A DNA stretch of 64,000 nt from Candidatus Gottesmanbacteria bacterium (GTDB taxonomy: Bacteria > Patescibacteriota > Microgenomatia > UBA10105 > UBA927). A program made the translations under genes and the position numbers. Shown here piece by piece: positions 7,394 through 35,929 of the stretch; position 1 is the stretch's first letter; every line of letters starts with the position of its first letter. The notes beneath the pieces are model-generated. The model worked only from the letters and a program-made list of their open reading frames with translations. It made no database searches and was not told the DNA's origin. The stretch lies in contig JAHFKN010000001.1 of the NCBI GenBank assembly GCA_023245355.1, positions 75,528 to 139,527 on the forward strand, given 5' to 3'.

Positions 7394-7447
7394 TGGATCG
7401 TGTAGGATTTGAACCTACGACATGTCCGATCCAATCGGACCGCTCTA
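7394..7447 (-). tRNA. tRNA-Pro(UGG) 3' portion (nt ~18-73: part of D arm, anticodon arm, variable loop, T arm, acceptor 3' strand ACGATCC + A73), detached from its 5' portion
   Basis: Minus-strand reading: ...TAGAGCGGTCCGATTGGATCGGACATGTCGTAGGTTCAAATCCTACACGATCCA. The anticodon loop is ATTGGAT, giving anticodon UGG. The T arm is GTAGG-TTCAAAT-CCTAC. The matching 5' acceptor strand GGATCGT is found 375 bp away at 7816-7822. Confidence 0.7.
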
Positions 7448-7454
7448 TCGGAAG

Positions 7455-7526
7455 TGGTCGGTGCAGGATTTGAACCTGCGACATCTGCAATGTGAATGCA
7501 GCGCTCTACCGCTGAGCTAACCGACC
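7455..7526 (-). tRNA. tRNA-Val(CAC)
   Basis: Minus strand: GGTCGGT TA GCTC AGCGGTA GAGC G CTGCA TTCACAT TGCAG ATGTC GCAGG TTCAAAT CCTGC ACCGACC A. The acceptor stem pairs perfectly and the anticodon loop gives CAC. Its first 10 nt overlap the last codons and stop of the GIY-YIG ORF. Confidence 0.8.
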
Positions 7527-7765
7527 CGAATTAACTCTTCAATGACTTTCCTGCTTTTTAATTTCTTTAGCTTACGCTCTTCTCTCTTAGCCTCAACAAT
7601 ATTTTCAAATTCCTTACTATATTTGATTATCCAAGGCCTGGTTGTTCGTGTGTATGGACTCTTGCCGTCGTTATGCTCTTTCAGCCTTCGTGTCAAATCG
7701 GTTGTTGAACCAATATAAAATCTATTATTTTTTGCGCTCTGTAAAATATACAGATAGCCTTTCAT
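7517..7765 (-). CDS. Small stand-alone GIY-YIG nuclease-domain protein (YhbQ/UPF0213-like), 82 aa
   Basis: MKGYLYILQSAKNNRFYIGSTTDLTRRLKEHNDGKS... matches the GIY-x10-YIG motif followed by the RRL.EHN signature of the GIY-YIG catalytic core. No extra DNA-binding domain is present. Confidence 0.8.
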   Translation of the reverse strand: MKGYLYILQSAKNNRFYIGSTTDLTRRLKEHNDGKSPYTRTTRPWIIKYSKEFENIVEAKREERKLKKLKSRKVIEELIRVG

Positions 7766-7774
7766 GAAAATTTA

Positions 7775-7822
7775 CGACATGTCCGATCCAATCGGACCGC
7801 TCTACCGCTGAGCTAACGATCC
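7775..7822 (-). tRNA. tRNA-Pro(UGG) 5' portion (nt 1-48: acceptor 5' strand, D arm, anticodon arm, variable loop), detached from T arm and 3' acceptor strand
   Basis: Minus strand: GGATCGT TA GCTC AGCGGTA GAGC G GTCCG ATTGGAT CGGAC ATGTCG. This is followed by TAAATTTTC and the ATG of the GIY-YIG ORF instead of a T arm. Confidence 0.7.
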
Positions 7823-7886
7823 TTTAAGGAATCATCATTATTATATACAGCTTACTGTGATGGGACAATAGTAAGGTATCCGCCCG

Positions 7887-10697: not shown

Positions 10698-10736
10698 CTG
10701 ATTATCGTATCATTGGTGTGTTTCGGGGGCAATGGG

Positions 10737-10804
10737 TGCCGCTGAGAGGACTTGAACCTCTAAGCCTTACGGCATCCCGATCTGATCGGGACGTGTCTGT
10801 CGTG
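10737..10804 (-). pseudogene. 5'-truncated tRNA-Leu(CAG) fragment (anticodon arm, long variable arm, T arm, 3' acceptor strand; no 5' acceptor strand or D arm)
   Basis: Minus strand: ...CAGACACG TCCCG ATCAGAT CGGGA TGCCGTAAGGCTT AGAGG TTCAAGT CCTCT CAGCGGC A. The partner strand GCCGCTG is absent. The fragment abuts the 3' end of tRNA-Leu(UAG) with no spacer. Its 32 nt GCCGTAAGGCTTAGAGGTTCAAGTCCTCTCA are identical to tRNA-Leu(GAG) at 40820-40901. Confidence 0.6.
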
Positions 10805-10886
10805 TGCTCCCGAGAGGAATCGAACCTCTAAGGGTTACCCCATACGCTCCTAAAGCGTACGCGTCTGCCAATTTCGCCACGGGAGC
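10805..10886 (-). tRNA. tRNA-Leu(UAG)
   Basis: GCTCCCG...TACGC TTTAGGA GCGTA, a long variable arm, AGAGG TTCGATT CCTCT, then CGGGAGC A. The acceptor stem pairs perfectly. Confidence 0.75.
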
Positions 10887-10927
10887 CCTTTATAAATTAA
10901 TGAGGGCAATGGGTATTATACCCCGCT

Positions 10928-18752: not shown

Positions 18753-19505
18753 CTATGATTTGGATTTGCCTCCTTTTTTCCACGGTCCGCGGGAAAGCAA
18801 AGGCCCATACAGATCTATATCCATAGGAATCTGCCACACCTCAAGTTCCTGTTGCGTTGGCTTCTTTTCGTCAAAATGTACGAAATCGACGCCGGTGATG
18901 ATGGCAACGGGTGTTTGTTCATTGGTTTCCCCCATGACCACCACAGCGGCGGCGGCCAGACCATCGGCGACATTCATCATAGTCATTTCCATTTTTCTGC
19001 CGAACAGGTCCGGTTTTCCGATAAAATCATTTAATCCGGAAAACCCGCTGTAGGACAATGCGATGCCGCTTACCCCCCAGCGAAGCGGTGTCGTCCTGCT
19101 GTCGGTAATGAGGACGCCCAGATCCGATAGTCCGAACCTTTCAGCAAGATGTTTACGGATCAGGCCGGCTGACTTTTGCGGATCCTCCGGCCACAGAATG
19201 TAATAGCCGTTACCATTTGATTCATCTATTCCTGCTGACGGCACCAGAAGATTTTGCGTGATTGTGAGGGTGACGCCGAGCGGATTCATATTTGTCGGAA
19301 TGTATTGTTCCGATTCCTGCAGGATAAGGTCGTTTTTATCTGCCTCTCCGATTTTGACCGTGCGCCCTTCGCACAGCGATACTATTTTGGATGTGACGAC
19401 AACTACGGATTTTTCCGGAAGGGTGGGGATAACGGCATCCAAAACGGCAAAGATCTCATGTGATCCGGAAGTAATCTTGGGTGTTTTAATCGGTTGTATG
19501 TTCAT
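18753..19505 (-). CDS. CofE-like F420-0:gamma-glutamyl ligase family protein
   Basis: Family-like segments are VVVTSKIVSLCEGR, LITDSRTTPLRWGVSGIALSYSGF and GETNEQTPVAII. Confidence 0.5.
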   Translation of the reverse strand: MNIQPIKTPKITSGSHEIFAVLDAVIPTLPEKSVVVVTSKIVSLCEGRTVKIGEADKNDLILQESEQYIPTNMNPLGVTLTITQNLLVPSAGIDESNGNGYYILWPEDPQKSAGLIRKHLAERFGLSDLGVLITDSRTTPLRWGVSGIALSYSGFSGLNDFIGKPDLFGRKMEMTMMNVADGLAAAAVVVMGETNEQTPVAIITGVDFVHFDEKKPTQQELEVWQIPMDIDLYGPLLSRGPWKKGGKSKS

Positions 19506-22293: not shown

Positions 22294-22383
22294 GCCCAGA
22301 TGGTGAAACTGGTATACACGCTAGCTTCAGGAGCTAGTGGCCTTAAACAAGCCGTGGAGGTTCGAGTCCTCTTCTGGGCACCA
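22294..22383 (+). tRNA. tRNA-Leu(CAG) with encoded CCA, immediately preceded by TGgTATAAT extended -10
   Basis: GCCCAGA TG GTG AAACTGGTAT ACAC G CTAGC TTCAGGA GCTAG, a long variable arm, GGAGG TTCGAGT CCTCT TCTGGGC A CCA. Confidence 0.8.
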
Positions 22384-22390
22384 AGTACGT

Positions 22391-22780
22391 ATGGCAGAAA
22401 TACAAACCACTCCGGAAACAGATAAACCGAATCCCGTAAGTCTGCGTGAATATCACCTTATGGATCGGCACGAGCGCAAAGCATTTTTAGGGAAACTTAC
22501 GAATGCGGAAAAGAAAGATTTACGGTTATCTGCCATCGTTGCGATGGAATCGAAGCCGAGAAGCGAACGCAGGGAATTGGCTCGCGAATTCGTAGCAAAG
22601 TTGGAAAAACGTGAGAGCCCCTCTGTTGCGGACAGAGTAGAGCTTCTGCTTGCGAAAAAAGAAGTTCTTCGGCTCACTATTCCTGAGAAACCTGCGATAT
22701 TTTTGCGCAAGCTCCGTTCAAAGGCTTTCCCCCGGTGGATACGGGAAGCGCATAGCCCCTTCCTTATAACCGGCCGGTAG
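22391..22780 (+). CDS. Hypothetical basic protein (129 aa) at the island edge
   Basis: ORF beginning MAEIQTTPE. The longer ORF-track start overlaps the tRNA and is rejected. G+C is host-like. Confidence 0.35.
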   Translation: MAEIQTTPETDKPNPVSLREYHLMDRHERKAFLGKLTNAEKKDLRLSAIVAMESKPRSERRELAREFVAKLEKRESPSVADRVELLLAKKEVLRLTIPEKPAIFLRKLRSKAFPRWIREAHSPFLITGR

Positions 22781-22964
22781 ATTAAAGACGTGCTTTCGCC
22801 TTAAGAATTAAGCAGTATTGAAGAATACTGAGGAGTAGAAATGTAAGCGTAATAATGTGCACCATCTGGGACGATGTTAGAACCTATCTAACCTCCTCTA
22901 TTGATCCAAAAGAGAAAGCTAGTCTCATCATTTCCATCGCTCATTTTAAGAAGGAGGGAAAACA

Positions 22965-23486
22965 ATGAGTTACAATTCGTCCTATATGGGCTCTCAATCT
23001 AACTCTCGCCAGACTGCAAATGCTATTTTAGCAGATGAAAACTCCTTTTACTATCGATTCGAGCGTGATTTGGATCAGGCAAAACACGAGGTAATCATTG
23101 AAAGCCCATTTATCACTGTTCCAAAGCTACGAAATTTGAAGCATGCCTTTGAGTCCTTAATGGAGCGCAAAATAGCAGTGTTTGTCATAACTCGGCACCC
23201 AGAAGAGCATGAATCGTTCATGGCCGAACAAGCTGAGGCAGGAATTCAGTTTTTTGAAAAAATAGGTGTACAAGTGTTTATGAGCAAGACTCACCATAGG
23301 AAATTAGCCATGATTGACCGTAAGATCGTCTGGAAAGGCAGTCTTAACATTCTGTCACACAAGAATAGCCGCGAACTTATGGAGCGCGAGGATGACGAGA
23401 AGAAAGCTAAAGACCTGTTTTCCTTTCTCAAATATGATCATGTCAGTGAAATACAAAATATTTGTTATACTAAGGAGGAAATATGA
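22965..23486 (+). CDS. Single-HKD phospholipase-D-family nuclease (Nuc-like)
   Basis: HHRKLAMIDRKIVWKGSLN is a perfect match to HxKxxxxDx6GSxN. At 173 aa the size is typical of Nuc/NucT-type dimeric nucleases. Confidence 0.75.
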   Translation: MSYNSSYMGSQSNSRQTANAILADENSFYYRFERDLDQAKHEVIIESPFITVPKLRNLKHAFESLMERKIAVFVITRHPEEHESFMAEQAEAGIQFFEKIGVQVFMSKTHHRKLAMIDRKIVWKGSLNILSHKNSRELMEREDDEKKAKDLFSFLKYDHVSEIQNICYTKEEI

Positions 23487-23713
23487 ACGATACAGTAACC
23501 AAAAAGTCAGAACTAGTCATTGATGCGCTCCAATATGCGCACGATCACAATTTGGATATCAGCAACATAATTGATGTACAGAAAATACTCGATGTTCTTG
23601 ACCCTGAGCACAAAGAAAATGCCTCTGAGTTTGCTGAGCTTCTCAAAACCTCAGATACTTTTATGGGCATGAAAGCTCGTGATTTGAAATCCGAAGACAA
23701 ATTACCCAATTAA
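23483..23713 (+). CDS. Small acidic protein (76 aa) translationally coupled (ATGA overlap) to the PLD nuclease
   Basis: The start overlaps the upstream stop. The sequence is Asp/Glu-rich. Confidence 0.35.
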   Translation: MNDTVTKKSELVIDALQYAHDHNLDISNIIDVQKILDVLDPEHKENASEFAELLKTSDTFMGMKARDLKSEDKLPN

Positions 23714-24006
23714 CTAGTTATTTTCTCGTCGATAATTGCTTGGCACCGTGATTTTGCATAATCCCTCGCATGAAAGGCACATGATTTATCATCACATTTG
23801 ATGAATGGATCATCACCAAACCCAATATAGGATTCATACAACTGTTCTGCATTCATTTTTGGTTGGTATGAGCTTTTCAGGCAGTCATCAACAATCTTCT
23901 TGCAGGCAACAATCGCTTCCTCACAGGTGTCATATTCACCATGCATATACCTCTCGCTCTCGTCCATGAAGTGAAAGTTATCATCAACAAATACTTGGTA
24001 TGTCAT
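23710..24006 (-). CDS. Small Cys-rich protein (98 aa), last gene of the ATPase-NERD operon
   Basis: Cys-containing segments CEEAIVACKK...DDC...KCDDKSCAFH. It overlaps the NERD gene stop by 4 nt. Confidence 0.35.
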   Translation of the reverse strand: MTYQVFVDDNFHFMDESERYMHGEYDTCEEAIVACKKIVDDCLKSSYQPKMNAEQLYESYIGFGDDPFIKCDDKSCAFHARDYAKSRCQAIIDEKITS

Positions 24007-24722
24007 ATTGCTTTTGTGTATGTAGCTTTTACTATATCGACTATACGCTGATCTGGATAGCTTCGAGGCTCGCTAGTAATCATTTTAATTAGCCAACGAT
24101 ACTGAATAACTCGAACGTTTTTAATTGGCTGAATACCGAATCGAACAATGGCGAAGCGATGGGAAAAGACAATGATTGGAATCACAAATGCGCTGGAGAT
24201 GCCTGAGCCCATCAAATGATCATGTAGAGAGGTGGCTTCTCGCATGGCTTGGCGCAGAAAGTCTTTCTCAAATGATTTTTGATTTAGAGTAAGTTCGTCA
24301 CCATTAAATCCAACTGTCCCGTGGTGATTCTTGACCTCTATAGCGTGAATCCCTGTTGGTCCTACAACCACAAAATCAATATTTTCTTTCTTACCAGGGA
24401 CATGGACATCTTCAAATACGGTATAGTTAGCATCCAGTTTTTTTAATTCATCGCCGATAAGCATCTCTCCGACGATACCGCTCCGAAATTTATACATTAG
24501 CGATTCTTCTTTTCTCATGAGTGAGTCAGTTACAAGCAGAAGTGGTCCAAATACCAGAGTGATTGCAAAGACTGCAGGTAACGAGAAAGAAGCGATAGAC
24601 AATCTCCAGATCACTATACCTATGATGATGGTGAAGTAAATTAAGTAGGCTAATGCGCCGTATTTACTTATGGTCTTATTTGCATTGAGATATCGACTGG
24701 GATGACCATAAATTACTGCCAT
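24003..24722 (-). CDS. Membrane-anchored NERD (nuclease-related domain) protein
   Basis: Two N-terminal TM helices. NIDFVVVGPTGIHAIEVKNHHG matches the NERD core ([DE]-x-D-h-h-h-x-x-x-G-h-x-h-h-E-x-K). Confidence 0.55.
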   Translation of the reverse strand: MAVIYGHPSRYLNANKTISKYGALAYLIYFTIIIGIVIWRLSIASFSLPAVFAITLVFGPLLLVTDSLMRKEESLMYKFRSGIVGEMLIGDELKKLDANYTVFEDVHVPGKKENIDFVVVGPTGIHAIEVKNHHGTVGFNGDELTLNQKSFEKDFLRQAMREATSLHDHLMGSGISSAFVIPIIVFSHRFAIVRFGIQPIKNVRVIQYRWLIKMITSEPRSYPDQRIVDIVKATYTKAI

Positions 24723-24729
24723 AACATAT

Positions 24730-26973
24730 TTATATAATTTCTATGACTTCGAAGAAATCCCTAATAATACCTCTTAAGTCTCCCACAGAGAAACTATCAC
24801 GCTTAACTTGTGAATCAGAATCGTCATGGTTCCAAAAATGTGCGGATAACGAGTTTATTTTTTGCGCTTTGTCACCATCATATGTACCATCAGAAGTTAG
24901 TTTTTTAACAAAAGATGAAGTACTTCCACCATCCGCAATTTCAGTTTTAAGGCGTAGGTAATATTTTCGCTTAAAAAGTTGTTCAAGCACATCCCTAATC
25001 GATCTAAGTTTTTCCCAATTTACTTCAGTATCTGGTGCGGATTCTAAAGCTTTTAGTTCTTCAATCTGACGATAATATGTATCTAAGTATTCCTCGTTAG
25101 GTAGCATCAATTCTAAAGTAGAGGTACTAGTTGAAGGATTGTAGACAATTTTGAAACTTTTATGTTGAGGGATATGCTCATTAAGAAGTGCGAAGAATGA
25201 CTGTTCATGTGTAAGGATAATCAATTGTTGGGGTTTTGATTTGGTAATAAATTTATTTAGAAGTATAACTGTTCTTAGTTTTCTTTCGGCATCAAGACTG
25301 GACAAAGGATCATCTAATACGATTATTTTATCTTGAATATTGGCCTGAGCTTTAAGACTAGCAATAAAGAATGCAAAAGCTAGCAATCTTTTATCGCTTT
25401 CGCTTAAAGTATTTCCAAAGTGTTGAACCTCGTCGTGATCTGCCGAGAGTGCTATTTTATGGCCCGAAAAACATATTCCAAAAAGTGGAGCAGTGCTTCT
25501 TATTCCAGATTTTGGTTTTGTATCCACAAGTTGGAAATCGGCTTGCAGCTCTTTCAAAATACTGTTTACTTCTGTTTCATAGGTAGCAAAAATACTCTCG
25601 GCGTATTTGCTTTTAGCCTGCAAAGAAGTGTCTCTAATATTTGTTAGTTCTTTCGTTTTTTGATCCAATACTTCGTATTCAATACAAAAATCTGTCCAGA
25701 GTTTTTCGCCACGTTGTTTTGTTAACTCTAATACTGACTTTTCATTAGATAAAGTTTGATGTTTATTTTTGTCGTAAGGACTAGAATATTCAGCTTGGAG
25801 CAATATAACTTTCCCCTTTACCTTTTTTAAAGCAGATAATATTTTTTGAAGGGAATCAAAATTTATTGCATAATCCAAATTACTTTTAGATGAAAGTTCT
25901 TTCTTAAATAATGATATATTGTCATTGATTTCTGTGATTTCAGAGTTGAAATCGACCTGAATTCCCATAGCGGAAAGTTCACCGGAATATCGCCTAAGCT
26001 CTGCCTCGATTTTCCATGAAATTAGATGGTTGGATGCTTCTTTAACAGAATTAATTAGTTGCTTATAAGACTCGCTAAACATTGTTTCATAAGTCTCAAT
26101 CAAGGACTTTGCGTCATTGACGATAGGTTGACCACAAAATACGCAATGTCGTGTTTTTTCAGATTTGTCAGAGTCTTTAAGTAGAAATGTGCCTTGCGCA
26201 AGAAATCGCTCGGCACCATCATCCGATCGCAGGTGACTTAATATATGTGTTTTAATCTCTTCTTGATGAAATGAAATTGTTGGCGACAATTTCGGCTCCA
26301 AACTTTCAAGGCTATCAGAATTAATAGCCTTTATAAGTTCGTCAAGTTTATCTTTTACGTTCTGATATTGACTGTAGGCCTTAATTTCATTTTCTTTCTG
26401 AGTTATTTTATTATCAATATCTGAATCAGGATCAATTTTCCTAAAGGAATCAAAGCTGACTTTATAATGTCCTAAATGTCGAGTGTATTCTCGTGTAATT
26501 TCGGCCTTACGATTGGCATTCTTTTGACACTCTAGTTCTGCGTCTGAAAAATCCTTTTCTAATTTTTTGCCTTCCTCCCCAAGAATAATTGTTTGGATTG
26601 ATTTTTCGTTATCCGCTGTTATTGATTCATGTAGATACACATTTTTTGCTACGAATCTTGTGTCAAAAACTGTGATATTTGGACAACTTGTATTCCAAGC
26701 GCCAGTATTAAACGTGTGTGTGGTCGTTGATTTATCGTCACCAGTATTTATATTTACAGATTGTTCGTCTGTTGCTCCGAATGTTTTCCGGCCAACAATG
26801 TAGCATGGATCATTTGTGCTTAATGAGGTTAGTATGGCAGTTAGAGTGCTTTTGCCTTTTGCGTTAGGTCCGAAGAAGAATGTATTTGGTGCAAAATTAT
26901 ATTCACTACCTTTACCCATCGAACAAGCTCTAAGTTTTCCTACATTCTTGATATTTAGAATTTTTTTAATCAT
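24730..26973 (-). CDS. RloC/AAA_13-like ABC-type ATPase with coiled-coil CxxC zinc-hook (747 aa); no recognisable C-terminal nuclease domain
   Basis: Walker A is FFFGPNAKGKSTLT near the N-terminus. A long coiled-coil insert carries HCVFCGQP (CxxC). Walker B/D-loop is IIVLDDPLSSLD and the H-loop is IILTHEQSF. This layout matches SMC/Rad50/RloC-type ABC ATPases. Confidence 0.55.
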   Translation of the reverse strand: MIKKILNIKNVGKLRACSMGKGSEYNFAPNTFFFGPNAKGKSTLTAILTSLSTNDPCYIVGRKTFGATDEQSVNINTGDDKSTTTHTFNTGAWNTSCPNITVFDTRFVAKNVYLHESITADNEKSIQTIILGEEGKKLEKDFSDAELECQKNANRKAEITREYTRHLGHYKVSFDSFRKIDPDSDIDNKITQKENEIKAYSQYQNVKDKLDELIKAINSDSLESLEPKLSPTISFHQEEIKTHILSHLRSDDGAERFLAQGTFLLKDSDKSEKTRHCVFCGQPIVNDAKSLIETYETMFSESYKQLINSVKEASNHLISWKIEAELRRYSGELSAMGIQVDFNSEITEINDNISLFKKELSSKSNLDYAINFDSLQKILSALKKVKGKVILLQAEYSSPYDKNKHQTLSNEKSVLELTKQRGEKLWTDFCIEYEVLDQKTKELTNIRDTSLQAKSKYAESIFATYETEVNSILKELQADFQLVDTKPKSGIRSTAPLFGICFSGHKIALSADHDEVQHFGNTLSESDKRLLAFAFFIASLKAQANIQDKIIVLDDPLSSLDAERKLRTVILLNKFITKSKPQQLIILTHEQSFFALLNEHIPQHKSFKIVYNPSTSTSTLELMLPNEEYLDTYYRQIEELKALESAPDTEVNWEKLRSIRDVLEQLFKRKYYLRLKTEIADGGSTSSFVKKLTSDGTYDGDKAQKINSLSAHFWNHDDSDSQVKRDSFSVGDLRGIIRDFFEVIEII

Positions 26974-27023
26974 ATTTCTAATTAAGGCGATTTTATCACT
27001 TTATCAGGCATAAGTGCTCAAAA

Positions 27024-27635
27024 TTATATCTTAGGTAAAAATACTCTCGGATTTACTGGTATTCCATATATTCTTGTTTCAAAGTGTAAGTGTGGTCCGG
27101 TTGCCCAGCCTGTTTGCCCCTCTTTCCCAATGGTGTCGGTAATAGTTACTTTCTGCCCTTTGTAGACGTAGATTTTGTCTAGATGAGCATAGATGGTAGT
27201 GATGTTGTTTCCATGGTCGATGATAACGTGTTTACCATACCCCCAGAATATCTCTCCAGCATAGGCAACTTCGCCATCCATCGCGGGGTTTATGGGATCG
27301 CCAATTTGTCCAGAGGGGTTGGCAATATCAATACCTGTGTGAAAGACCTGATACAAGCTAGACTGGCCAAATTCGAGGGTAATGACTCCGTGAACCGGCC
27401 ACACTACTTGTGGAGATATGGATTTAACAACTTCCCCGGAGGTTGGATCTTTGATCTCGATGGACTGCGTAACAGGATTACTTTCAACCAACTTGTCTGA
27501 GATTATGTTTATACCAACTCGAGTGAGTAGAATTATCCCGATAACTGGAACCATGAGGATAGCTAGAAAGGCTAAAAAGACAAATTTCAATTCCTTACGA
27601 AATGACCAGAGAGTAAGGAAGAGTTTTGGATTCAT
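27024..27635 (-). CDS. M23-family metallopeptidase (cell-wall hydrolase of the T4SS operon), N-terminal TM
   Basis: HTGIDIA...GYGKHVIIDHGNNITTIYAHL...GPHLHFE contains the HxxxD and HxH M23 zinc motifs. Confidence 0.8.
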   Translation of the reverse strand: MNPKLFLTLWSFRKELKFVFLAFLAILMVPVIGIILLTRVGINIISDKLVESNPVTQSIEIKDPTSGEVVKSISPQVVWPVHGVITLEFGQSSLYQVFHTGIDIANPSGQIGDPINPAMDGEVAYAGEIFWGYGKHVIIDHGNNITTIYAHLDKIYVYKGQKVTITDTIGKEGQTGWATGPHLHFETRIYGIPVNPRVFLPKI

Positions 27636-27637
27636 AC

Positions 27638-29422
27638 TTAGATGTAGATTTCCCGAGGATCGGTCGTGAGGAGTGGCTGTTCTTCTTCAGAGGCTACTAC
27701 TTTAACTGCAACATGGTTTTGATCAGCTATGATGAGAGCCTCACCCCGTTCACAAGTTAAAAGATAATGCTGTTCAAAGGCAGAAAGATGGAATTCTTCA
27801 GCCACTTTTTTGATGGTGGTAGTATCTTGGCGCATAAGTATACGAAGTGATGATTGACTGGCAATGGCCTTGCCATATTCCTGTGAGAGGAAATCATTGG
27901 CTTGTTGCGTGATGATTGTGACACCCAGATAGTATTTTCTGGCGCGTCTGACGAGCCCTGAGATAAATCTGGCGCTTTCTGGCTCTTGGAGGAGTATCCA
28001 GCCCTCGTCAATAACAAGCATGCGTTTTTGTGGATTCTGCTTGACCTCGCTATGCACGAAATTAGCCACAACCATCATCATGATCTGACGAAGTGACTCA
28101 TTTAAGTCTTTAATATCAAACACAACGAGGCGATTATTCATCTCGATATTGGTCTGGGAATCAAATACTCCGCCAAGCGAACCTTTCACAAATCTCTCGA
28201 GTCGGTTGCAGAGGTCTTTGTGTTTCATTGTCTTCAGTTCTTTGTAAAAATCTTTAAGCACTGGATAGGCAATCTTTGCGGGCTTCTTGCCATTCTTACG
28301 CTTGCTCAGACCTGAATTTTTATAAGTTTGTAGAAGCGCACGATCCACCGTTGCCCGCTCCTCCGATGTCAGACTGCCAACCATGAGAGAAATGAGCTCT
28401 GTAAGGTCTTGTATGTGCTCAGCGAGGCTATTCTCACCCGTGACTGAGCTTTGGTAATCAAAAGGGTTAATTTTTTCCTTGGAGGTGCTAGAGAGCTTGA
28501 TGTACGTTCCGTTGACGCTTTTAGCCAGTTGCTTATATTCGCGTTCTGGATCAATGACTATGACTTTTGTACCTTGCATGAGGTGACGCAGGATCTCGAC
28601 TTTGGCAGTAAAGCTCTTGCCTGAACCGGACTGGGCAAAAATAATCGAATTGGCGTTGTTTAGACTATAACGATCGATGATAACCAAAGAATTATTGGAT
28701 TTATTGATTCCATAGAGGATACCGGACTCTTGGACGAGTTCGGATGAGACAAAGGGAAAGGTTAAAGCAGCGCTTGAGCTATCCAAGTTACGTTTTTGTG
28801 CCAGCTTGTTTTCGCCACGAGGCAACATTGATTGCAACGCTTCGATTTGTTGGAAAGTTGCAGGTTTTATATAGAAAAGTCTTGTCTGCATGACTGTTTC
28901 CAATAGCTTAGTTACTTTATCAAGTTCAACTAGACTTTCAGCCGTAACGGTCATGTAAATAGAAACTTGGAACAGTTTTTCCATACCCCGCTGGATTTTG
29001 TCTTTGAGTTCCATGGCTGATTCAAGCGGATCAGTGATTTCACTTCCGATAACACGTCCCTCTTTAAGCATGGTGCGCTTGGTGGACTCAAGCTCTGTGA
29101 TTTTACGGTTAAGTTTGGGCAGTGCTATGAGAGGATCGATCTGCTCGATGTGATAATTGATGTCGATATTGTGGTTAAAGTTCACGAGCATTGAAAGCCA
29201 GCCAGTCGAAGCCACATAGGGATACCCTGAAACAAAGAGTGTTCGGACGAAGGTATCGTTTATTTGTAAATAGCTCGATTCCTCTTTAAGTCCGGCATAG
29301 GAAATAAGGTCGAGTTGGTCTTGTTCGCCAAACGTGACGTTGATAGCTTGGTGGGCTAAGCGTTTTTTCTTTTGACGCTTTTGCCAGTCACGAATTGGTT
29401 TGATTTTGGTTAGGTTAAACAT
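27638..29422 (-). CDS. VirB4-family conjugative transfer ATPase (TcpF/PrgJ/Orf16-like)
   Basis: Walker A is FAQSGSGKSF. VIDPEREY follows. The DUF87-like layout matches Gram-positive VirB4 homologues. Walker B is RMLVIDEGW. Confidence 0.75.
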   Translation of the reverse strand: MFNLTKIKPIRDWQKRQKKKRLAHQAINVTFGEQDQLDLISYAGLKEESSYLQINDTFVRTLFVSGYPYVASTGWLSMLVNFNHNIDINYHIEQIDPLIALPKLNRKITELESTKRTMLKEGRVIGSEITDPLESAMELKDKIQRGMEKLFQVSIYMTVTAESLVELDKVTKLLETVMQTRLFYIKPATFQQIEALQSMLPRGENKLAQKRNLDSSSAALTFPFVSSELVQESGILYGINKSNNSLVIIDRYSLNNANSIIFAQSGSGKSFTAKVEILRHLMQGTKVIVIDPEREYKQLAKSVNGTYIKLSSTSKEKINPFDYQSSVTGENSLAEHIQDLTELISLMVGSLTSEERATVDRALLQTYKNSGLSKRKNGKKPAKIAYPVLKDFYKELKTMKHKDLCNRLERFVKGSLGGVFDSQTNIEMNNRLVVFDIKDLNESLRQIMMMVVANFVHSEVKQNPQKRMLVIDEGWILLQEPESARFISGLVRRARKYYLGVTIITQQANDFLSQEYGKAIASQSSLRILMRQDTTTIKKVAEEFHLSAFEQHYLLTCERGEALIIADQNHVAVKVVASEEEQPLLTTDPREIYI

Positions 29423-30032
29423 AATTGTGTTTGAATAATGCGGATAATGCTTCTTTTGTAATCGCCTGGGTCTTTACCGATTCAGGGTTATAAAAGCTGT
29501 AGAACAAGTTAATAATCTCGATACTTGAGAGTGTTTTAGCTTTCATCTGCATCCGCTCCAAGCCTTTGACGACAATATCGCGATTTAGATTTAAGTGTTC
29601 TTTGATTACTTTCCAATCTTCGTGCCGGTCTGGGTGATGATATGGCAATACGATGTAAAATCGTCTTGAGAGAATACTGTTACCTGAGACGAGCTTTTTA
29701 ACGAATGCACTATATCCCTCGATTTGCTTGCGATAGATCGGATCTTTCTCTTTGTCCTTTGATCTAGCCACATCTTCAGCGTATTTGTCGATATCAATCT
29801 CTCGAACTCGTACCAAGATTTGAATCTGGCAAGGTAAGGCATTTAGGAAGTTTTGGAAACTATCGATCATGACGTCCTGTTCTTCTTCACTCTTGAGCTC
29901 GAAGTTTATGGATGAGGTTTCCAAAATCAACCGATATTCCTGGTTAGGCAAAACCAGAACATTATCCAAGACTTTTTTGATTTGTATTTGCTGTCGCGAT
30001 GATAGAGATTTATTGAATAATGTCATAGTCAT
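29415..30032 (-). CDS. Hypothetical T4SS-operon protein (205 aa)
   Basis: Overlaps the virB4-like start. No motif recognised. Confidence 0.3.
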   Translation of the reverse strand: MTMTLFNKSLSSRQQIQIKKVLDNVLVLPNQEYRLILETSSINFELKSEEEQDVMIDSFQNFLNALPCQIQILVRVREIDIDKYAEDVARSKDKEKDPIYRKQIEGYSAFVKKLVSGNSILSRRFYIVLPYHHPDRHEDWKVIKEHLNLNRDIVVKGLERMQMKAKTLSSIEIINLFYSFYNPESVKTQAITKEALSALFKHNYV

Positions 30033-30499
30033 TTCCTCCCATACCGAAACGATACAGCCAGATTCTTTGATGCCATTGCCTGTTCAAATTTGATAAGTTC
30101 CTTGATCGACAGCTCTTTAGTGAGCCTCTTGGTTGTTTTTGCTACTGCCTTTTTGTGGTTTGCTACAGATTCAAATGGCAAATCAACTAACCGCTCTGTT
30201 ATGTCATTTTTATTGAAGATGTAGAATTTCGGACGTAACTTGTAACGAAGTAATATTCCAATCCACTCAGCAACGATTTTGTCTTTGATTCTTACTGCCA
30301 AAACAAGTGAGATAGCGCTCACTAACAGCACCAAGCTTACCTTGTACGGAGCGAGCTTCATTGCTGGAATAAATATTGCGTATACCAGTGTCCCCCAGAG
30401 AACAGGCATCATCAGAAGTAGAATCTGCGCGAAATTGAGAGATCCTGCGATTTTGTCTTCAACTGTCGTGATTTGTGCTGGAATGATTGTTGTTCTCAT
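30029..30499 (-). CDS. Small membrane protein of the T4SS operon (VirB3/PrgI-like topology)
   Basis: Two TM helices (LLLMMPVLWGTLVYAIFIP; VSLVLLVSAISLVLAV). It sits directly upstream of virB4, as VirB3 analogues do. Confidence 0.35.
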   Translation of the reverse strand: MRTTIIPAQITTVEDKIAGSLNFAQILLLMMPVLWGTLVYAIFIPAMKLAPYKVSLVLLVSAISLVLAVRIKDKIVAEWIGILLRYKLRPKFYIFNKNDITERLVDLPFESVANHKKAVAKTTKRLTKELSIKELIKFEQAMASKNLAVSFRYGRK

Positions 30500-31773
30500 A
30501 CGTTTAAGGTCTTTCTGGGTGTCTTGGCGCCAACTGTACCTTTGTGAGCTGTATCAGTACTCATGACGTTAATAATCTGACTTCCCATGTGTTTGACCGT
30601 TCCCACACTTCGAGAAAATAAAATTAGTTGCATCAAGAAGCTTGGGATCTTAAGCAACGTGAGTAAAAGTCCAATGGCTACCGCAATTGAGATCAGTGAG
30701 TTATTGGTTTGCTCAGGGAGTGCCAGGAATGATCCGGCCAGTTGAATAGTTACGACATGAATAAAAATCATGAATACTGAGACTAGATAGCTTTTAATCG
30801 CCATTTCTGCAAAGTCGGCGGTCTTAGGGAGTGTCCAAAGTAAGAATATGAACGGAGAGAGTACAGCTCCAAGAGCTATAACGATCAAACGGCTGATATA
30901 CATAAGTAGGAGCACAATCGCTACGATCAAGAACAGAAGCAGAAAAATCAAAGTGATGAGTGGAGCTGTACCAGTCGTAATATTTTGCAGAGTAATTGCG
31001 TTCGTGACCCAGGCATGGTTGAGTCCTCCAGTTGCAGATATCACACCTGCTACGAGTGCGTTACAGGTTTTTACGGCGTAGTCAGCGAGGAATAGAGAAA
31101 CATTTGTTCCAAGGAATGCTAGCCCAATTCTAGGCAGGAGATGTTTAAATTCAATCTCTTCAAACCCGAATGTTGAGGCGCTCATAAACTGAAGACCTAG
31201 GAGTGCCACAACCAACACGAACAGCGTATCTGTAATCCCGAGCATGATTAGCCAAAATTTGACGATTGAGGCATTCTCAAGAAGCGATGGAGTGGTTGAT
31301 AAAAACGTCATAATCCCATCAACTATTGGTTTAGTGGAACTTTCAACTATGTTTTGAATAAAGCCGTTGACTGCATCAATAAGGACTTGGGTCAAACCGT
31401 CGCTTGGTGCCACACTCTCAATTTGGGTAATTGGTAGATTGGATGCGGTAGTAGTTGTACCATCACCAACTAAAGCTCCAGATAGAAATGAAACAATTGA
31501 ACTGGCAGCAAAAACAACAACCAAACCTATCAAGGCATTTCTGATAGTTTTCTTGGCTTCTTCTAAAGCATCCGGCTTACCAGTAGAGGTAATGTAGATA
31601 TAGCCACCCCGAATTAAAAAAAAGACCGCTGCTGCGGCCGAGATAAGTGTAACTATTGAAAGAGCGTCATTGGTAAACGCTGTCACCTCCGTAGGTGCGC
31701 TAGTTGAAGCATACGCAAGCGTTGGAGAAAAGAGTGCTATGAGTATGGTTACGACCAATACTAATAATTTCAT
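30496..31773 (-). CDS. Polytopic membrane protein, VirB6/TrbL/PrgH-like channel component
   Basis: Signal peptide plus at least 6 TM helices across the C-terminal two-thirds, with a central extracellular region. Operon position supports the call. Confidence 0.45.
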   Translation of the reverse strand: MKLLVLVVTILIALFSPTLAYASTSAPTEVTAFTNDALSIVTLISAAAAVFFLIRGGYIYITSTGKPDALEEAKKTIRNALIGLVVVFAASSIVSFLSGALVGDGTTTTASNLPITQIESVAPSDGLTQVLIDAVNGFIQNIVESSTKPIVDGIMTFLSTTPSLLENASIVKFWLIMLGITDTLFVLVVALLGLQFMSASTFGFEEIEFKHLLPRIGLAFLGTNVSLFLADYAVKTCNALVAGVISATGGLNHAWVTNAITLQNITTGTAPLITLIFLLLFLIVAIVLLLMYISRLIVIALGAVLSPFIFLLWTLPKTADFAEMAIKSYLVSVFMIFIHVVTIQLAGSFLALPEQTNNSLISIAVAIGLLLTLLKIPSFLMQLILFSRSVGTVKHMGSQIINVMSTDTAHKGTVGAKTPRKTLNV

Positions 31774-31801
31774 ATTTGTTCATATTCCAATATTGGCCGA
31801 C

Positions 31802-32137
31802 TTACTGAGCCGCGCCAAATGCTCCAGTTGCCAGATCTGAAACAATATTTGTCAGCACGAAAGCACCAAGCACAACTGCAAGGCCAATGGCTGAATACAA
31901 AATTGTTTTTTTGGAGCGATCAAGTGTTTCTGGGTTGCCTGAGCTAGTAATGTAGCCAACGCCTCCCCAGACGAAGAATCCAGCAGAAATGAGTCCGGCA
32001 AGTGTTACAAGTACCTGGATGACACTTTTTATGAATGTTTCGATTTTGGTAACATCTCCCGAAGCAGCAAAGACTGGTGAAGCAAAAGTCAGTGCCGTGA
32101 TGGCGACTGATGAGAAGATAATAATCTTTTTATTCAT
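31802..32137 (-). CDS. Small secreted two-helix membrane protein, pilin/VirB2-like
   Basis: Signal peptide (AITALTFASPVFA) plus two hydrophobic helices. It is the first gene of the T4SS operon. Confidence 0.35.
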   Translation of the reverse strand: MNKKIIIFSSVAITALTFASPVFAASGDVTKIETFIKSVIQVLVTLAGLISAGFFVWGGVGYITSSGNPETLDRSKKTILYSAIGLAVVLGAFVLTNIVSDLATGAFGAAQ

Positions 32138-32190
32138 AACCTACCTCCATATAAATTACTAATTTATAAATATTAGGCAGGTCTGGTTAC

Positions 32191-32220
32191 AAAAAAGCCC
32201 CTATCTGGAGGGGCAGCTCT
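32191..32220 (-). terminator. Hairpin (GCCCCT-atctgg-AGGGGC) followed on the minus strand by TTTTTT; rho-independent terminator-like, about 60 nt upstream of the pilin-like gene
   Basis: Read directly from the sequence. A-run on the plus strand and T-run on the minus strand. Confidence 0.4.
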
Positions 32221-32338
32221 GTTGAACTTGAGGGAATTATTATCCTAACCAGGCTAAATGTCAACTAGATGTAGTCAGATAATTAACAGTTTGTGACAAA
32301 CCTAGAAAGTAAACCCTATCGGACATATAATAAGCTAT

Positions 32339-33727: not shown

Positions 33728-33848
33728 TTTTCCACTTGGATATTTAGGGGCCTTGCCCCTCATTTCGCAAGGGTTTTCGTTTCACTCCAATAAACTGCGC
33801 TTCGCTTGCCCTTGCAAAATTCACCCCGCTTTAAAAATTCTCAGGTAT

Positions 33849-33870
33849 GGGAAGTATGGCCATACTTCCC
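33849..33870. promoter_or_regulatory. 22-bp perfect palindrome gggaagtatgg|ccatacttccc, 45 bp upstream of ORF 33915
   Basis: Exact 11+11 inverted repeat with no spacer. Confidence 0.5.
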
Positions 33871-33914
33871 AACCATTAATTTTCGGGAAGAAGCCAAGAA
33901 GGAGGTGAAAACCT

Positions 33915-34229
33915 ATGAAACTATTAACAAAAGAGCTTATCAAAAGATTTGAGCAAGTCGGCAGACAGGAAGACTCTAGCGATCCTCTCGTTATTGTAAA
34001 GTTCTTCAACCCTTGTGGAGCAGGTACATGGTACGCAACCGAGTACGATCCAGAATCGAGAGAGTTTTTCGGATTCGTTTCAATCTTTGGGGATTGGAAT
34101 GACGAATGGGGATCTTTTTCTCTGGATGAACTCGAAAACTATCACGGCAACTTTGGATTAGGGATTGAGCGGGATCTGTATTTTGACGAGCAGCGAATAA
34201 GTCAGGTTGTCCCAAAAGCAAAATTATAA
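33915..34229 (+). CDS. Hypothetical small protein (104 aa)
   Basis: The RBS aaggaggtg lies 8 nt upstream. The sequence is acidic. Confidence 0.35.
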   Translation: MKLLTKELIKRFEQVGRQEDSSDPLVIVKFFNPCGAGTWYATEYDPESREFFGFVSIFGDWNDEWGSFSLDELENYHGNFGLGIERDLYFDEQRISQVVPKAKL

Positions 34230-34291
34230 ATATATAGTATCCACCGCGGGGCCCCAACCCCGCGGATGGGTATCCAAGAAAGGAAAAATAT

Positions 34292-35924: not shown

Positions 35925-35929
35925 TAAAG

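What the first reader, a model, noticed from the sequence alone, without database searches (positions are those of the whole stretch)
10737..10886. 5'-truncated tRNA-Leu(CAG) fused to the 3' end of tRNA-Leu(UAG), sharing an identical 32-nt 3' half with the recombinase-adjacent tRNA-Leu(GAG)
The fragment has a good anticodon arm (CAG), long variable arm, T arm and 3' acceptor strand CAGCGGC-A. It lacks the 5' acceptor strand and D arm, and it starts exactly where tRNA-Leu(UAG) ends. Its variable arm plus T arm (GCCGTAAGGCTTAGAGGTTCAAGTCCTCTCA) are identical to tRNA-Leu(GAG) at 40820-40901, 30 kb away in the same orientation. That tRNA abuts the serine recombinase. A differently built, CCA-encoding tRNA-Leu(CAG) at 22294-22383 sits at the island's left edge.
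Three readings are possible: a decayed att-site remnant of an older or larger integration event spanning 10.8-40.9 kb, a tRNA pseudogene complemented by an element-borne tRNA-Leu(CAG), or a split-tRNA half.
Basis: seen in the sequence. Interest (0 to 1): 0.55.

Follow-up and report, generated by a model that had tools for sequence, protein, structure and literature searches.

The report
Scar of a replaced tRNA-Leu gene
The fragment is not a broken tRNA-Leu(CAG) but the leftover 3' part of an older tRNA-Leu(UAG) gene that was overwritten by a different copy of the same gene, apparently by small nuclease-carrying mobile cassettes that repeatedly swap tRNA genes in this group of tiny-genome bacteria.

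Summary
The fragment is real (minus strand, 10803-10737), but it is not a tRNA-Leu(CAG) pseudogene.

Its last 38 nt are 38/38 identical to intact tRNA-Leu(UAG) genes found at this same locus in related Candidatus Gottesmanbacteria. The "CAG anticodon arm" is a perfect 7-bp hairpin with a 3-nt loop. In a strain whose proteins are 98% identical, that hairpin reads TCCCGC-TTC-GCGGGA.

The 32 nt shared with tRNA-Leu(GAG) reflect a common isoacceptor body. They are not an att duplication. The 10.8-22 kb block is syntenic in relatives.

The same anatomy occurs at tRNA-Val(CAC) in this window, with all parts present. An 82-aa GIY-YIG nuclease gene plus an intact tRNA-Val sit between the 5' and 3' pieces of an older tRNA-Val. 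Both pieces have the anticodon arm replaced by a similar hairpin. The 98% strain has the uninterrupted older tRNA-Val there, an empty site.

Homologous nucleases sit in the same architecture next to tRNA-Val, Leu, His, Gln and Ala genes in other genomes.

Best explanation: the Leu fragment is the right-hand scar of a homing-type cassette (nuclease plus replacement tRNA) that has since lost its nuclease gene. No description of such cassettes turned up in the searchable literature.

The parts
10805..10886 (-). Intact tRNA-Leu(UAG), allele 'A' (acceptor GCTCCCG/CGGGAGC, anticodon arm TACGC-TTTAGGA-GCGTA). This is the incoming, now functional copy.
   Evidence: Found by ARAGORN and Rfam. It is 83/83 identical to the allele in L009, whose flanking proteins are only 64-77% identical to the window's. 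It matches only 58-64/83 in closer relatives L003, L005 and L006.
10799..10804 (-). Junction spacer CACGAC between the new tRNA and the remnant.
   Evidence: It is the counterpart of the 4-5 nt spacers after the inner tRNA-Val in cassettes L044-L049. L021 is 4 nt shorter in this junction region, reading ACGACACG where the window reads ACGACAGACACG.
10792..10798 (-). AGACACG, the 3' strand of the D stem of the displaced allele B (intact B reads GGTAGACACG).
   Evidence: Comparison with intact B alleles in L008, L010 and L013. The remnant starts at the same tRNA position as the right flank of the tRNA-Val cassettes, (A)TAGAGCG.
10775..10791 (-). Hairpin 'H', TCCCGAT-CAG-ATCGGGA. It sits exactly where the 17-nt anticodon arm of allele B (CAGGT-TTTAGGA-ACCTG) should be.
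   Evidence: predicted 8-bp hairpin, 3-nt loop. Homologous hairpins occur in every remnant of relatives and on both sides of the tRNA-Val cassette. Pairing is kept in 98.3% of cells, and 2 pairs show compensatory changes.
10737..10774 (-). Variable arm, T arm, 3' acceptor strand and discriminator of the displaced allele B.
   Evidence: 38/38 identical to intact tRNA-Leu(UAG) in L008, L010, L011 and L013. Of these, 32 nt are identical to tRNA-Leu(GAG) at 40820-40901.
10704..10732 (-). Promoter-like TTGCCC...TACGAT of the downstream 266-aa gene. It abuts the 3' end of the remnant and so marks the original position of the tRNA gene.
   Evidence: In L003, L006 and L024 the intact tRNA abuts the same CATTGACC...TACGAT motif directly.
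10904..10914 (-). Second copy of ACCCATTGCCC. The other copy is at 10727-10737. This one lies between the tRNA promoter TATAAT and the intact tRNA and may be a trace of the deleted left half of the cassette.
   Evidence: L006 reads TATAATACCCACACGA directly before its tRNA. The deletion scenario is an inference.
7798..7822 (-). tRNA-Val locus: 5' fragment of the resident allele Val2 (GGATCGTTAGCTCAGCGGTAGAGCG), downstream of its conserved promoter (7840-7868).
   Evidence: Intact Val2 sits at the same site in L021, L003 and L013.
7781..7797 (-). Left hairpin H, GTCCGAT-TGG-ATCGGAC, replacing the anticodon arm of Val2.
   Evidence: The empty site in L021 has CTGCATTCACATTGCAG at this position.
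7517..7765 (-). 82-aa single-domain GIY-YIG nuclease gene. Its stop codon lies inside the 5' end of the inner tRNA.
   Evidence: Pfam GIY-YIG, E=5e-16. The closest solved relatives are UPF0213 proteins and SLX1. Homologs at 67-83% identity sit in the same architecture in L044-L049.
7455..7526 (-). Inner intact tRNA-Val(CAC), allele Val1 (GGTCGGT...ACCGACC), carried by the cassette.
   Evidence: All five cassettes carry the same acceptor allele.
7394..7454 (-). Right flank: CTTCC + GATAGAGCG + H (7424-7440) + ATGTC + T arm + ACGATCC + A. This is the 3' remnant of Val2 and the exact counterpart of the tRNA-Leu fragment.

Best explanation
The fragment is the 3' two-thirds (D-stem 3' strand to discriminator) of an older allele ('B') of the tRNA-Leu(UAG) gene. 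That allele once occupied this exact position, directly against the promoter of the next gene.

A different allele of the same tRNA ('A') was installed immediately upstream. It replaced the 5' part of B. The 17-bp anticodon arm of B was replaced by a GC-rich palindromic hairpin.

The proposed agent is a small selfish cassette of a kind still intact 3 kb away at tRNA-Val(CAC). That cassette holds a single-domain GIY-YIG nuclease gene followed by its own functional tRNA gene, bracketed by hairpin-plugged pieces of the resident tRNA.

Proposed mechanism:
1. The nuclease breaks a cassette-free tRNA gene in or near the anticodon arm.
2. The break is repaired from a cassette-bearing copy, using the conserved D-arm and variable/T-arm segments as homology.
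3. The anticodon arm is therefore lost. The segment hairpin-nuclease-tRNA-hairpin is copied in.
4. The host keeps a working tRNA because the cassette brings one.

At the Leu locus the left half (B 5' fragment, left hairpin, nuclease gene) was later deleted. What remains is promoter, allele A, then the B remnant.

Shown: the identity of the remnant, allele swapping at the locus, the filled-versus-empty site at tRNA-Val, and the recurrent nuclease-tRNA-hairpin architecture.

Inferred: that a nuclease-bearing cassette made the Leu scar, that the nuclease cuts the tRNA gene, and what the hairpin does (loss of the target site, control of nuclease expression, or a structure the nuclease recognises).
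For: 1. Identity of the remnant.
- It matches intact tRNA-Leu(UAG) B alleles at the same locus in L008, L010, L011 and L013 at 38/38.
- The D-stem strand AGACACG also matches B.

2. Alleles swap at this locus and leave stacked scars.
- The window, L021, L004 and L009 have A intact with a B remnant in progressive decay.
- L008 and L010 have B intact with an A-type remnant.
- L011 has a C-type remnant.
- L007 and L036 each have two remnants in series.
- Allele type is discordant with host relatedness.

3. The remnant sits at the ancestral position, abutting the promoter of the next gene.

4. The tRNA-Val locus in the window has the complete structure. A 34-nt repeat, G(G/A)TAGAGCG-H-ATGTCGTA, flanks the GIY-YIG gene plus tRNA-Val1.

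5. Filled and empty sites exist.
- L021 has flanking proteins 96-98% identical to the window's and carries plain Val2 at this site.
- The window and L044 differ from it exactly by replacement of the 17-nt anticodon arm with H...nuclease...tRNA...H.

6. Five cassettes share a conserved core, but their outer acceptor and T-stem ends differ and appear recipient-derived.
- The nuclease in L046 and L049 is 67-68% identical to the window's.
- The flanking DUF5660 protein is only 39-43% identical and trigger factor only 50%.

7. Every small GIY-YIG ORF found in the fetched loci lies within about 115 nt of a tRNA gene. Many also have 5' or 3' tRNA fragments and hairpins nearby. The tRNAs involved are:
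- Leu(UAG) in L018, L050, L051 and L052
- His in L005 and L019
- Lys/Arg in L014, L022, L035 and L038
- Leu(CAA) in L053
- Gln in L054
- Ala in L058.

8. The Leu remnant starts at the same tRNA position as the right flanks of the Val cassettes. Its hairpin TCCCGATCAGATCGGGA resembles the L049 cassette hairpin TCCCGATCGGATCGGGG.

9. There is a precedent. The T4 GIY-YIG endonuclease SegB cuts inside tRNA genes and drives inheritance of its own tRNA region (PMC2330249).
Against: - No nuclease gene and no left-hand fragment remain at the Leu locus in the window or in L021, so the link to a cassette rests on analogy.
- In the window and L044, the inner tRNA-Val has the same anticodon arm and flanks as the resident allele that was destroyed. 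A nuclease that recognised only that arm would also cut its own cargo.
- The 82-aa protein has no DNA-binding domain. It belongs to the Slx1-like/UPF0213 branch, which the phylogenomic survey treats as mostly vertically inherited repair nucleases rather than homing enzymes.
- L008 and L010 show replacement in the opposite direction (B over A), so no single specificity explains every event.
- Similar GC-rich hairpins also serve as ordinary terminators in these genomes, so the hairpin alone is not diagnostic.
- Nuclease activity is untested.
Confidence: 0.62

Rival explanations
1. It is an att-site remnant of an integrase-mediated genomic island. An element inserted into a tRNA-Leu gene, restored the gene with its own copy, displaced the host 3' end, and has since been deleted. 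Alternatively the island spans 10.8-40.9 kb and is tied to the serine recombinase.
For: - tRNA 3' fragments are the classic signature of tRNA-targeted integration (established knowledge).
- A large serine recombinase abuts tRNA-Leu(GAG), which shares 32 nt with the fragment.
- A low-GC island lies at 22.4-40.8 kb.
Against: - The remnant directly abuts the intact tRNA with only 6 nt between them. The same tight junction recurs in independent lineages.
- Both flanks are syntenic in 18 or more relatives.
- No integrase is near the locus in any of about 40 loci.
- The intact gene is a wholly different allele with matching 5' and 3' acceptor strands, so more than a 3' end was supplied.
- The acceptor strands of the fragment and tRNA-Leu(GAG) differ.
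- The island ends carry no att-like repeats.
- The anticodon arm is replaced by a hairpin, which Campbell integration does not predict.
Confidence: 0.06
2. Plain horizontal replacement without a dedicated nuclease. Foreign DNA from related CPR bacteria recombined in, anchored by homology upstream and joined illegitimately inside the resident tRNA. This left the 3' remnant. The hairpin evolved afterwards, or is a generic terminator-like insert.
For: - Allele phylogeny is discordant with host phylogeny.
- No nuclease gene is present at the Leu locus in the window.
- TCCCGC...GCGGGA hairpins also occur as ordinary terminators elsewhere.
- L005 and L006 have a nested tRNA-Val arrangement with no nuclease gene.
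Against: - Independent events, and two different tRNAs, share the same junction positions: the new tRNA ends at its 3' end, and the remnant starts in the D loop or D stem.
- They also share the same substitution of the anticodon arm by a related hairpin.
- The filled-versus-empty comparison at tRNA-Val shows the hairpins arriving together with the nuclease gene.
Confidence: 0.17
3. The fragment is kept because it works as RNA. It would act as a structured 3' trailer of the tRNA-Leu transcript, for example a terminator, a processing signal or a tRNA-like decoy, rather than being a mere scar.
For: - Hairpin pairing is preserved with compensatory changes, including between the window and L021 where the local flanks differ by only about 2%.
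- The predicted fold is more stable than shuffled sequences, z = -2.3.
Against: - The element is absent in L003, L006 and L024, where the tRNA abuts the promoter directly.
- It is partly deleted in L004 and almost gone in L009.
- Its tRNA-derived part differs in allele type between genomes.
- No U-tract follows the hairpin.
Confidence: 0.1
4. It is a tRNA-Leu(CAG) pseudogene or a split-tRNA 3' half.
For: In the window, the 17-nt arm can be drawn as a 5-bp stem with a 7-nt loop AUCAGAU, giving U33, anticodon CAG and A37.
Against: - The loop is TTC, TCA, TGA, TAA or TTA, and the arm is 15 nt, in relatives including a strain with 98% identical proteins.
- The equivalent hairpin in a tRNA-Val body would read UGG, a proline anticodon.
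- The rest of the body equals tRNA-Leu(UAG) allele B.
- No 5' half was found.
- No tRNA call is made even at E<=10.
Confidence: 0.02

Closest known systems
Phage T4 SegB, a free-standing GIY-YIG homing endonuclease in the T4 tRNA gene cluster (PMC2330249)
   Same: It is a GIY-YIG nuclease gene embedded among tRNA genes. It cuts inside the tRNA genes of relatives that lack it. Repair then replaces the recipient's tRNA region with the donor's, so nuclease and tRNA genes are inherited together.
   Different: - SegB is a two-domain enzyme with a C-terminal DNA-binding part and belongs to the I-TevI-like branch. It acts between co-infecting phages.
- The proteins here are 79-86-aa single-domain Slx1/UPF0213-like nucleases in bacterial chromosomes.
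- Each cassette here carries one tRNA that replaces the same tRNA.
- Hairpin-plugged 5' and 3' pieces of the old gene are left behind. The SegB passages read here do not mention this.
Free-standing GIY-YIG ORFs in fungal mitochondria that arrive with a copy of the end of the host gene and leave the displaced end as a downstream pseudogene (for example Allomyces atp6). This is recalled from memory and was not checked here.
   Same: A selfish nuclease gene avoids harming its host by bringing a replacement for the gene portion it displaces. The old portion persists as a remnant next to the new one.
   Different: The targets there are protein-coding genes in organelles, and in-frame fusions occur. 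Whole tRNA genes are not replaced, and no anticodon arm is swapped for a hairpin.
tRNA-targeted integrative elements (tyrosine-integrase islands and prophages) that restore the tRNA 3' end. This is established knowledge.
   Same: A tRNA gene is the target. Function is preserved by element-borne tRNA sequence. A partial tRNA copy remains as a scar.
   Different: Those elements have an integrase, and the scar lies at the far end of a kilobase-scale element as a direct repeat of the same sequence. Here there is no integrase, the scar touches the new gene, the whole tRNA is a different allele, and the anticodon arm of the scar is replaced.
Insertion sequences with homing endonucleases in rRNA genes of CPR bacteria (PMC11270868)
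   Same: The same bacterial radiation is involved. Structural RNA genes are invaded by nuclease-encoding insertions, and GIY-YIG proteins are among them.
   Different: Those insertions lie within rRNA genes and are mostly introns with LAGLIDADG enzymes. tRNA is not mentioned in that paper. The GIY-YIG cases were judged there to be sporadic and outside a homing context.

Membership tests
Functional tRNA or tRNA-Leu(CAG) gene | A complete cloverleaf (both acceptor strands and a D arm) that tRNA finders detect. | tested here: not met
   ARAGORN and Rfam at gathering threshold tRNAs and none covers 10737-10803. No tRNA hit appears even at E<=10. The 5' acceptor strand and the 5' half of the D arm are absent.
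Functional tRNA or tRNA-Leu(CAG) gene | A conserved 7-nt anticodon loop with the same anticodon in orthologous copies. | tested here: not met
   The loop is CAG in the window but TTC in L021, and TCA, TGA, TAA or TTA in a 15-nt arm elsewhere.
Split or permuted tRNA | A separately encoded 5' half whose acceptor strand (GCCGCTG...) complements the 3' half. | tested here: not met
   The only exact GCCGCTGTGGTG match (18939-18950) lies inside an ORF and is not followed by tRNA sequence. No other tRNA-like fragments exist in the window apart from the Val locus.
attL/attR scar of an integrase-borne genomic island | A direct repeat of the tRNA 3' segment, acceptor end included, at the two ends of a variably present element that encodes an integrase. 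| tested here: not met
   The shared 32 nt exclude the acceptor strand (CAGCGGC versus CACCCGC). The 10.8-22 kb block is syntenic in relatives. The 22.2-41 kb island has no att-like repeats. No integrase lies next to the Leu(UAG) locus in any fetched locus.
Free-standing homing-endonuclease element | A nuclease gene present at the locus. | tested here: not met
   This is not met at the Leu(UAG) locus of the window or of L021. It is met at the Val locus of the window (7517-7765) and at the Leu(UAG) locus of L018, L050, L051 and L052.
Free-standing homing-endonuclease element | Presence/absence polymorphism at the same site in close relatives (filled versus empty site). | tested here: met
   At tRNA-Val, L021 is empty (intact Val2), while the window and L044 are filled. 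Flanking proteins are 96-98% identical. For tRNA-Leu, the B allele is intact and scar-free in L013, and the C allele in L003, L006 and L024, against scarred loci elsewhere.
Free-standing homing-endonuclease element | Horizontal spread with co-conversion of flanks, meaning a conserved element core inside recipient-specific ends. | tested here: met
   The core is conserved across five cassettes while the outer acceptor and T stems differ. The nuclease is 67-68% identical where the flanking host proteins are 39-50% identical. tRNA allele type is discordant with host relatedness.
Free-standing homing-endonuclease element | Site-specific cleavage of the cassette-free allele by the encoded protein. 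| not testable with these tools
   This needs biochemistry. The only indirect hint is that the segment lost on insertion is exactly the 17-bp anticodon arm.
GIY-YIG nuclease superfamily, Slx1-like/UPF0213 branch | A GIY-YIG catalytic domain with no extra domains, related to the bacterial UPF0213 proteins. | tested here: met
   Pfam PF01541, E=5e-16. PDB hits are 1zg2 and 1ywl (UPF0213) at E~1e-8, with SLX1 weaker. PMC1564403 places 1ywl and 1zg2 in the bacterial Slx1 family.

The most novel reading that the evidence does not exclude
Single-domain Slx1-like GIY-YIG nucleases, so far regarded as housekeeping repair proteins, form a widespread class of selfish cassettes.
- They home into tRNA genes while carrying a spare copy of the very tRNA they destroy.
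- They replace the arm of the old gene with a GC-rich hairpin.
- This causes continual horizontal turnover of tRNA alleles in CPR bacteria and beyond. The same architecture is seen at tRNA-Ala in a contig whose taxon was not determined (L058), and sequence homologs occur in Bacteroidota.

The Leu fragment would be one decayed scar of this process.
Probability: 0.45. Interest if true: 0.75.

Novelty: new variant of a known kind. Interest (0 to 1): 0.6.

Why it matters
As a single feature, the fragment is an inert scar. It matters because it exposes a process.

In these very small genomes, which carry one copy of most tRNAs, tRNA genes are repeatedly overwritten by foreign alleles. The mobile unit appears to solve the problem of targeting an essential gene in a third way. 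It is neither an intron that splices out nor an integrase that restores the 3' end. It brings a whole replacement gene instead.

If confirmed, this would have several consequences:
- It would give a biological role to the many small GIY-YIG proteins of unknown function.
- It would explain tRNA-gene fragments and odd 'pseudo-tRNAs' in metagenome-assembled genomes.
- It would warn against using tRNA alleles or tRNA-adjacent fragments as markers of island integration.
- It would offer compact nucleases that may recognise tRNA-gene DNA or hairpin structures.

Tried and rejected
- **Missing 5' half.** The only exact GCCGCTGTGGTG hit lies in a coding Ala/Val run and does not continue as a tRNA. Rejected.
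- **Phage origin.** megablast of 9.5-12.5 kb against the phage collection found nothing.
- **Island att repeats.** The repeat search across 22.2-41 kb found only the expected D-arm similarity between tRNA-Leu genes.
- **Island-free variant.** The look-up of the RsmB-like protein returned only the same arrangement. Whether the island is variably present, and whether tRNA-Leu(CAG) is native, could not be tested directly.
- **Tandem-duplication model.** Rejected because the intact and remnant allele types swap places between genomes.
- **IS200/IS605-like or integron-like hairpin recombination.** Considered because of the direct hairpins. Set aside because the resident anticodon arm is lost rather than displaced, and no such transposase or integrase is nearby.
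- **Group I intron in the tRNA.** Rejected. There is no room for an intron core between the ORF and the inner tRNA, and Rfam gave no hit.
- **Non-CPR homologs.** P0222 was not on record.
- **Literature.** Five full-text searches found no description of GIY-YIG plus tRNA cassettes with tRNA fragments.
- **Other remnants.** A scan for further tRNA remnants in the window found only the Leu and Val loci.
Full report
**Setting.** The window comes from a Candidatus Gottesmanbacteria (CPR/Patescibacteria) chromosome.
- Diagnostic genes include a trigger factor without a PPIase domain and a DUF5660 protein.
- The 266-aa protein next to the finding has homologs named Gottesmanbacteria or Patescibacteria.
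- The window holds 15 tRNA genes.

**The observation.** On the minus strand, tRNA-Leu(UAG) runs from 10886 to 10805. After it come these segments:
- C + ACGAC (10804-10799)
- AGACACG (10798-10792)
- the palindrome TCCCGATCAGATCGGGA (10791-10775)
- TGCCGTAAGGCTTAGAGGTTCAAGTCCTCTCAGCGGCA (10774-10737)

Next comes CCATTGCCC...TACGAT, the promoter-like sequence of the 266-aa gene. The 32-nt identity with tRNA-Leu(GAG) at 40820-40901 is real. No tRNA finder reports the fragment, even at E<=10. The fragment therefore exists as described. It does keep the 3' strand of the D stem. Its 'anticodon arm' folds as a hairpin with a 3-nt loop; the predicted fold pairs 8 bp, 7 of them within the palindrome.

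**What the fragment is.** I fetched 18 syntenic loci from species-representative genomes and 23 from metagenomes, using the neighbouring 266-aa protein as the query.
- All have tRNA-Leu(UAG) directly upstream of that gene.
- The order tRNA-Pro, Gly, Arg, His, Arg, Lys, Leu(UAG), 266-aa gene, trigger factor, DUF5660, tRNA-Val(CAC) is conserved.
- None has a tRNA-Leu(CAG) at this position.

The tRNA-Leu(UAG) gene itself comes in several sharply different alleles.
- Allele A (acceptor GCTCCCG) is the window's intact gene.
- Allele B (GCCGCTG) is intact in L008, L010 and L013.
- Allele C (GCCGGGR) is intact in L003, L005 and L006.
- Further alleles occur in other loci.

The window fragment is allele B. 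Its last 38 nt match 38/38, and AGACACG is B's D-stem strand.

B-type Leu(UAG) and the window's Leu(GAG) are identical everywhere except the acceptor and anticodon stems. This explains the shared 32 nt as a common isoacceptor body.

**Allele turnover at the locus.** Which allele is intact and which is the remnant varies between genomes.
- A over B occurs in the window, L021, L004/L022 (T arm of the remnant already deleted) and L009 (remnant almost gone).
- B over A occurs in L008 and L010.
- A B-like allele over C occurs in L011.
- L007 and L036 each carry two remnants in series.
- L003, L006 and L024 have no remnant, and the tRNA abuts the promoter directly.

Allele type does not follow host relatedness. 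The window's A allele is 83/83 identical to that of L009, where the 266-aa protein is 67% identical. It matches only 58-64/83 in L003, L005 and L006, where that protein is 78-79% identical.

A simple tandem duplication cannot give this pattern. Repeated replacement can. Each replacement would put a new gene upstream and leave the 3' part of the old one against the promoter.

**The hairpin.** In every remnant the 17-nt anticodon arm of the old allele is replaced by a GC-rich palindrome.
- In relatives it reads TCCCGC-NNN-GCGGGA.
- In the window it reads TCCCGAT-CAG-ATCGGGA.

The 'CAG' is not conserved. L021 has proteins 96-98% identical to the window's and is about 91% identical in DNA overall. 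Around this locus it differs by about 2%. It reads TCCCGC-TTC-GCGGGA and has a junction 4 nt shorter. Pairing is kept in 98.3% of cells, with compensatory changes at two pairs. This excludes a tRNA-Leu(CAG) reading.

**A complete example in the same window.** Downstream of tRNA-Val(CAC) (7526-7455) lies an analogous remnant. Reading further upstream shows the whole structure:
- promoter
- 5' part of another tRNA-Val allele, Val2 (7822-7798)
- hairpin GTCCGAT-TGG-ATCGGAC (7797-7781)
- ATGTCGTA
- an 82-aa GIY-YIG ORF (7765-7517), whose stop codon lies inside the next tRNA
- intact tRNA-Val allele Val1
- CTTCC, then GATAGAGCG
- the same hairpin (7440-7424)
- the 3' part of Val2, ending at 7394

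L021 carries the uninterrupted Val2 gene at this site and has no nuclease gene. L044 has equally similar flanks and carries the cassette. The filled site therefore differs from the empty one exactly by loss of the 17-bp anticodon arm and gain of hairpin-nuclease-tRNA-hairpin.

**The cassette family.** The closest homologs of the nuclease (67-83% identity) all sit in this same architecture at tRNA-Val(CAC), in L044, L045, L046-L048 and L049.
- An alignment shows a conserved core. The outermost acceptor and T-stem sequences differ from locus to locus, and sometimes the 5' and 3' outer pieces do not even match each other.
- In L046 and L049 the nuclease is 67-68% identical to the window's. The flanking DUF5660 protein is only 39-43% identical and trigger factor only 50%.
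- In L045, L046 and L049 the inner tRNA has the anticodon stem GTCCG/CGGAC. The hairpin is that same stem with the loop changed from TTCACAT to AT-NNN-AT.

A second architecture goes with a related nuclease group. It consists of a 5' tRNA fragment with a long CCCGCC...GGCGGG hairpin in its D loop, then the nuclease gene, then a complete tRNA. It occurs at these genes:
- tRNA-Leu(UAG) in L018, L050, L051 and L052
- tRNA-Leu(CAA) in L053
- tRNA-Gln in L054
- tRNA-His in L005 and L019
- tRNA-Ala(GGC) in L058, whose taxon was not determined

In L018 and L052 the outer fragment is a different allele from the inner tRNA. Every small GIY-YIG ORF found in the fetched loci lies within about 115 nt of a tRNA gene.

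**Mechanism proposed.** These features fit a free-standing homing-type element.
1. The nuclease breaks a cassette-free tRNA gene at or near the anticodon arm.
2. Repair copies the cassette from a donor, using conserved tRNA segments as homology.
3. The host stays viable because the cassette supplies a working tRNA.
4. The old gene survives only as hairpin-plugged pieces.

The Leu fragment matches the right flank of such a cassette in its start position, its short spacer and its hairpin sequence. The left flank and nuclease gene are missing. An 11-nt repeat, ACCCATTGCCC (10904-10914 and 10727-10737), may be a trace of the deletion that removed them. That scenario is inferred, not shown.

Cleavage, the target site and the role of the hairpin are also inferred.

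Two weak points remain. In the window and L044 the inner tRNA shares the anticodon arm of the allele that was destroyed. The protein is also a minimal Slx1/UPF0213-like GIY-YIG domain without a DNA-binding module. It may recognise structure, or need a partner, rather than read sequence.

**Comparison with what is known.** The nearest studied case is phage T4 SegB. It is a GIY-YIG endonuclease in a tRNA cluster that cuts within tRNA genes and drives inheritance of its tRNA region.
- Fungal mitochondrial GIY-YIG ORFs that bring a duplicate gene end are a conceptual parallel. I recall this from memory and did not check it.
- tRNA-targeting integrases also restore their target, but they differ in every anatomical respect tested.
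- CPR bacteria are known for nuclease-bearing insertions in rRNA genes. The paper on them does not mention tRNA.
- Five full-text searches found no description of these cassettes. The library covers open-access papers only.

**Verdict.**
- The remnant identification is secure, at about 0.9.
- The nuclease-cassette origin of this particular scar is probable, at about 0.6.
- As a single feature the fragment is ordinary debris. It nevertheless points to an apparently undescribed variant of homing elements that turns over tRNA genes.

Noticed in passing
window 7394-7868 (minus strand): A complete nested cassette sits at tRNA-Val(CAC). In order it holds a promoter, the 5' fragment of the resident tRNA-Val, a hairpin, an 82-aa GIY-YIG gene, an intact tRNA-Val of another allele, the hairpin again, and the 3' fragment of the resident tRNA-Val. 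The related strain L021 has the empty site.
   Followed up: yes
window 22384-40828: A low-GC island (36-43% against about 50%) lies between tRNA-Leu(CAG) and tRNA-Leu(GAG). It carries defence-like genes (AAA_13 ATPase, NERD, PLD-like). A 552-aa large serine recombinase ORF there overlaps the 3' end of tRNA-Leu(GAG) by 10 nt. No att-like repeats were found, and no island-free relative could be retrieved.
   Followed up: partly
window 10904-10914 and 10727-10737: The 11-nt direct repeat ACCCATTGCCC brackets the intact tRNA-Leu plus its remnant. It may be a footprint of the deletion that removed the left half of a cassette. L021 has the repeat as well.
   Followed up: partly
L014 4099-4353, L035 1944-2245, L022 716-965: In these relatives a covarying hairpin plus a GIY-YIG gene is inserted between tRNA-Arg(TCG) and tRNA-Lys(CTT). 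In the window those two tRNAs are only 14 nt apart.
   Followed up: partly
L058 600-1005: The same design is seen on a 240-kb contig whose taxon was not determined: the 5' tRNA fragment GGGGATGTAGC, a long hairpin, a 79-aa GIY-YIG gene, then intact tRNA-Ala(GGC). This exact protein occurs on 24 or more contigs. The phenomenon may extend beyond CPR bacteria; other sequence homologs are named Bacteroidota.
   Followed up: partly
L005 9326-9935, and the tRNA-Val remnant after L005 12920: A roughly 570-bp insert with an ORF of unknown function lies between an intact tRNA-Leu and a 10-nt remnant of its own 3' end. A 65-nt hairpin-rich insert lies inside the T loop of the tRNA-Val remnant, when compared with L006.
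   Followed up: no
L008 9490-10000, L010 2768-3200, L013 6756-7250: A conserved Cys-rich ORF of about 103 aa (two CxxC motifs, no Pfam hit) lies between the tRNA-Leu remnant and the 266-aa gene. It is present only in genomes whose intact allele is B.
   Followed up: no
L008 8802, L009 9242, L010 2080, L012 8998: A conserved TCCCGA...TCGGGA hairpin lies in the 5' leader of the glucosaminidase-like gene upstream of tRNA-Leu. Hairpins of this sequence type are common in these genomes, also as terminators.
   Followed up: no
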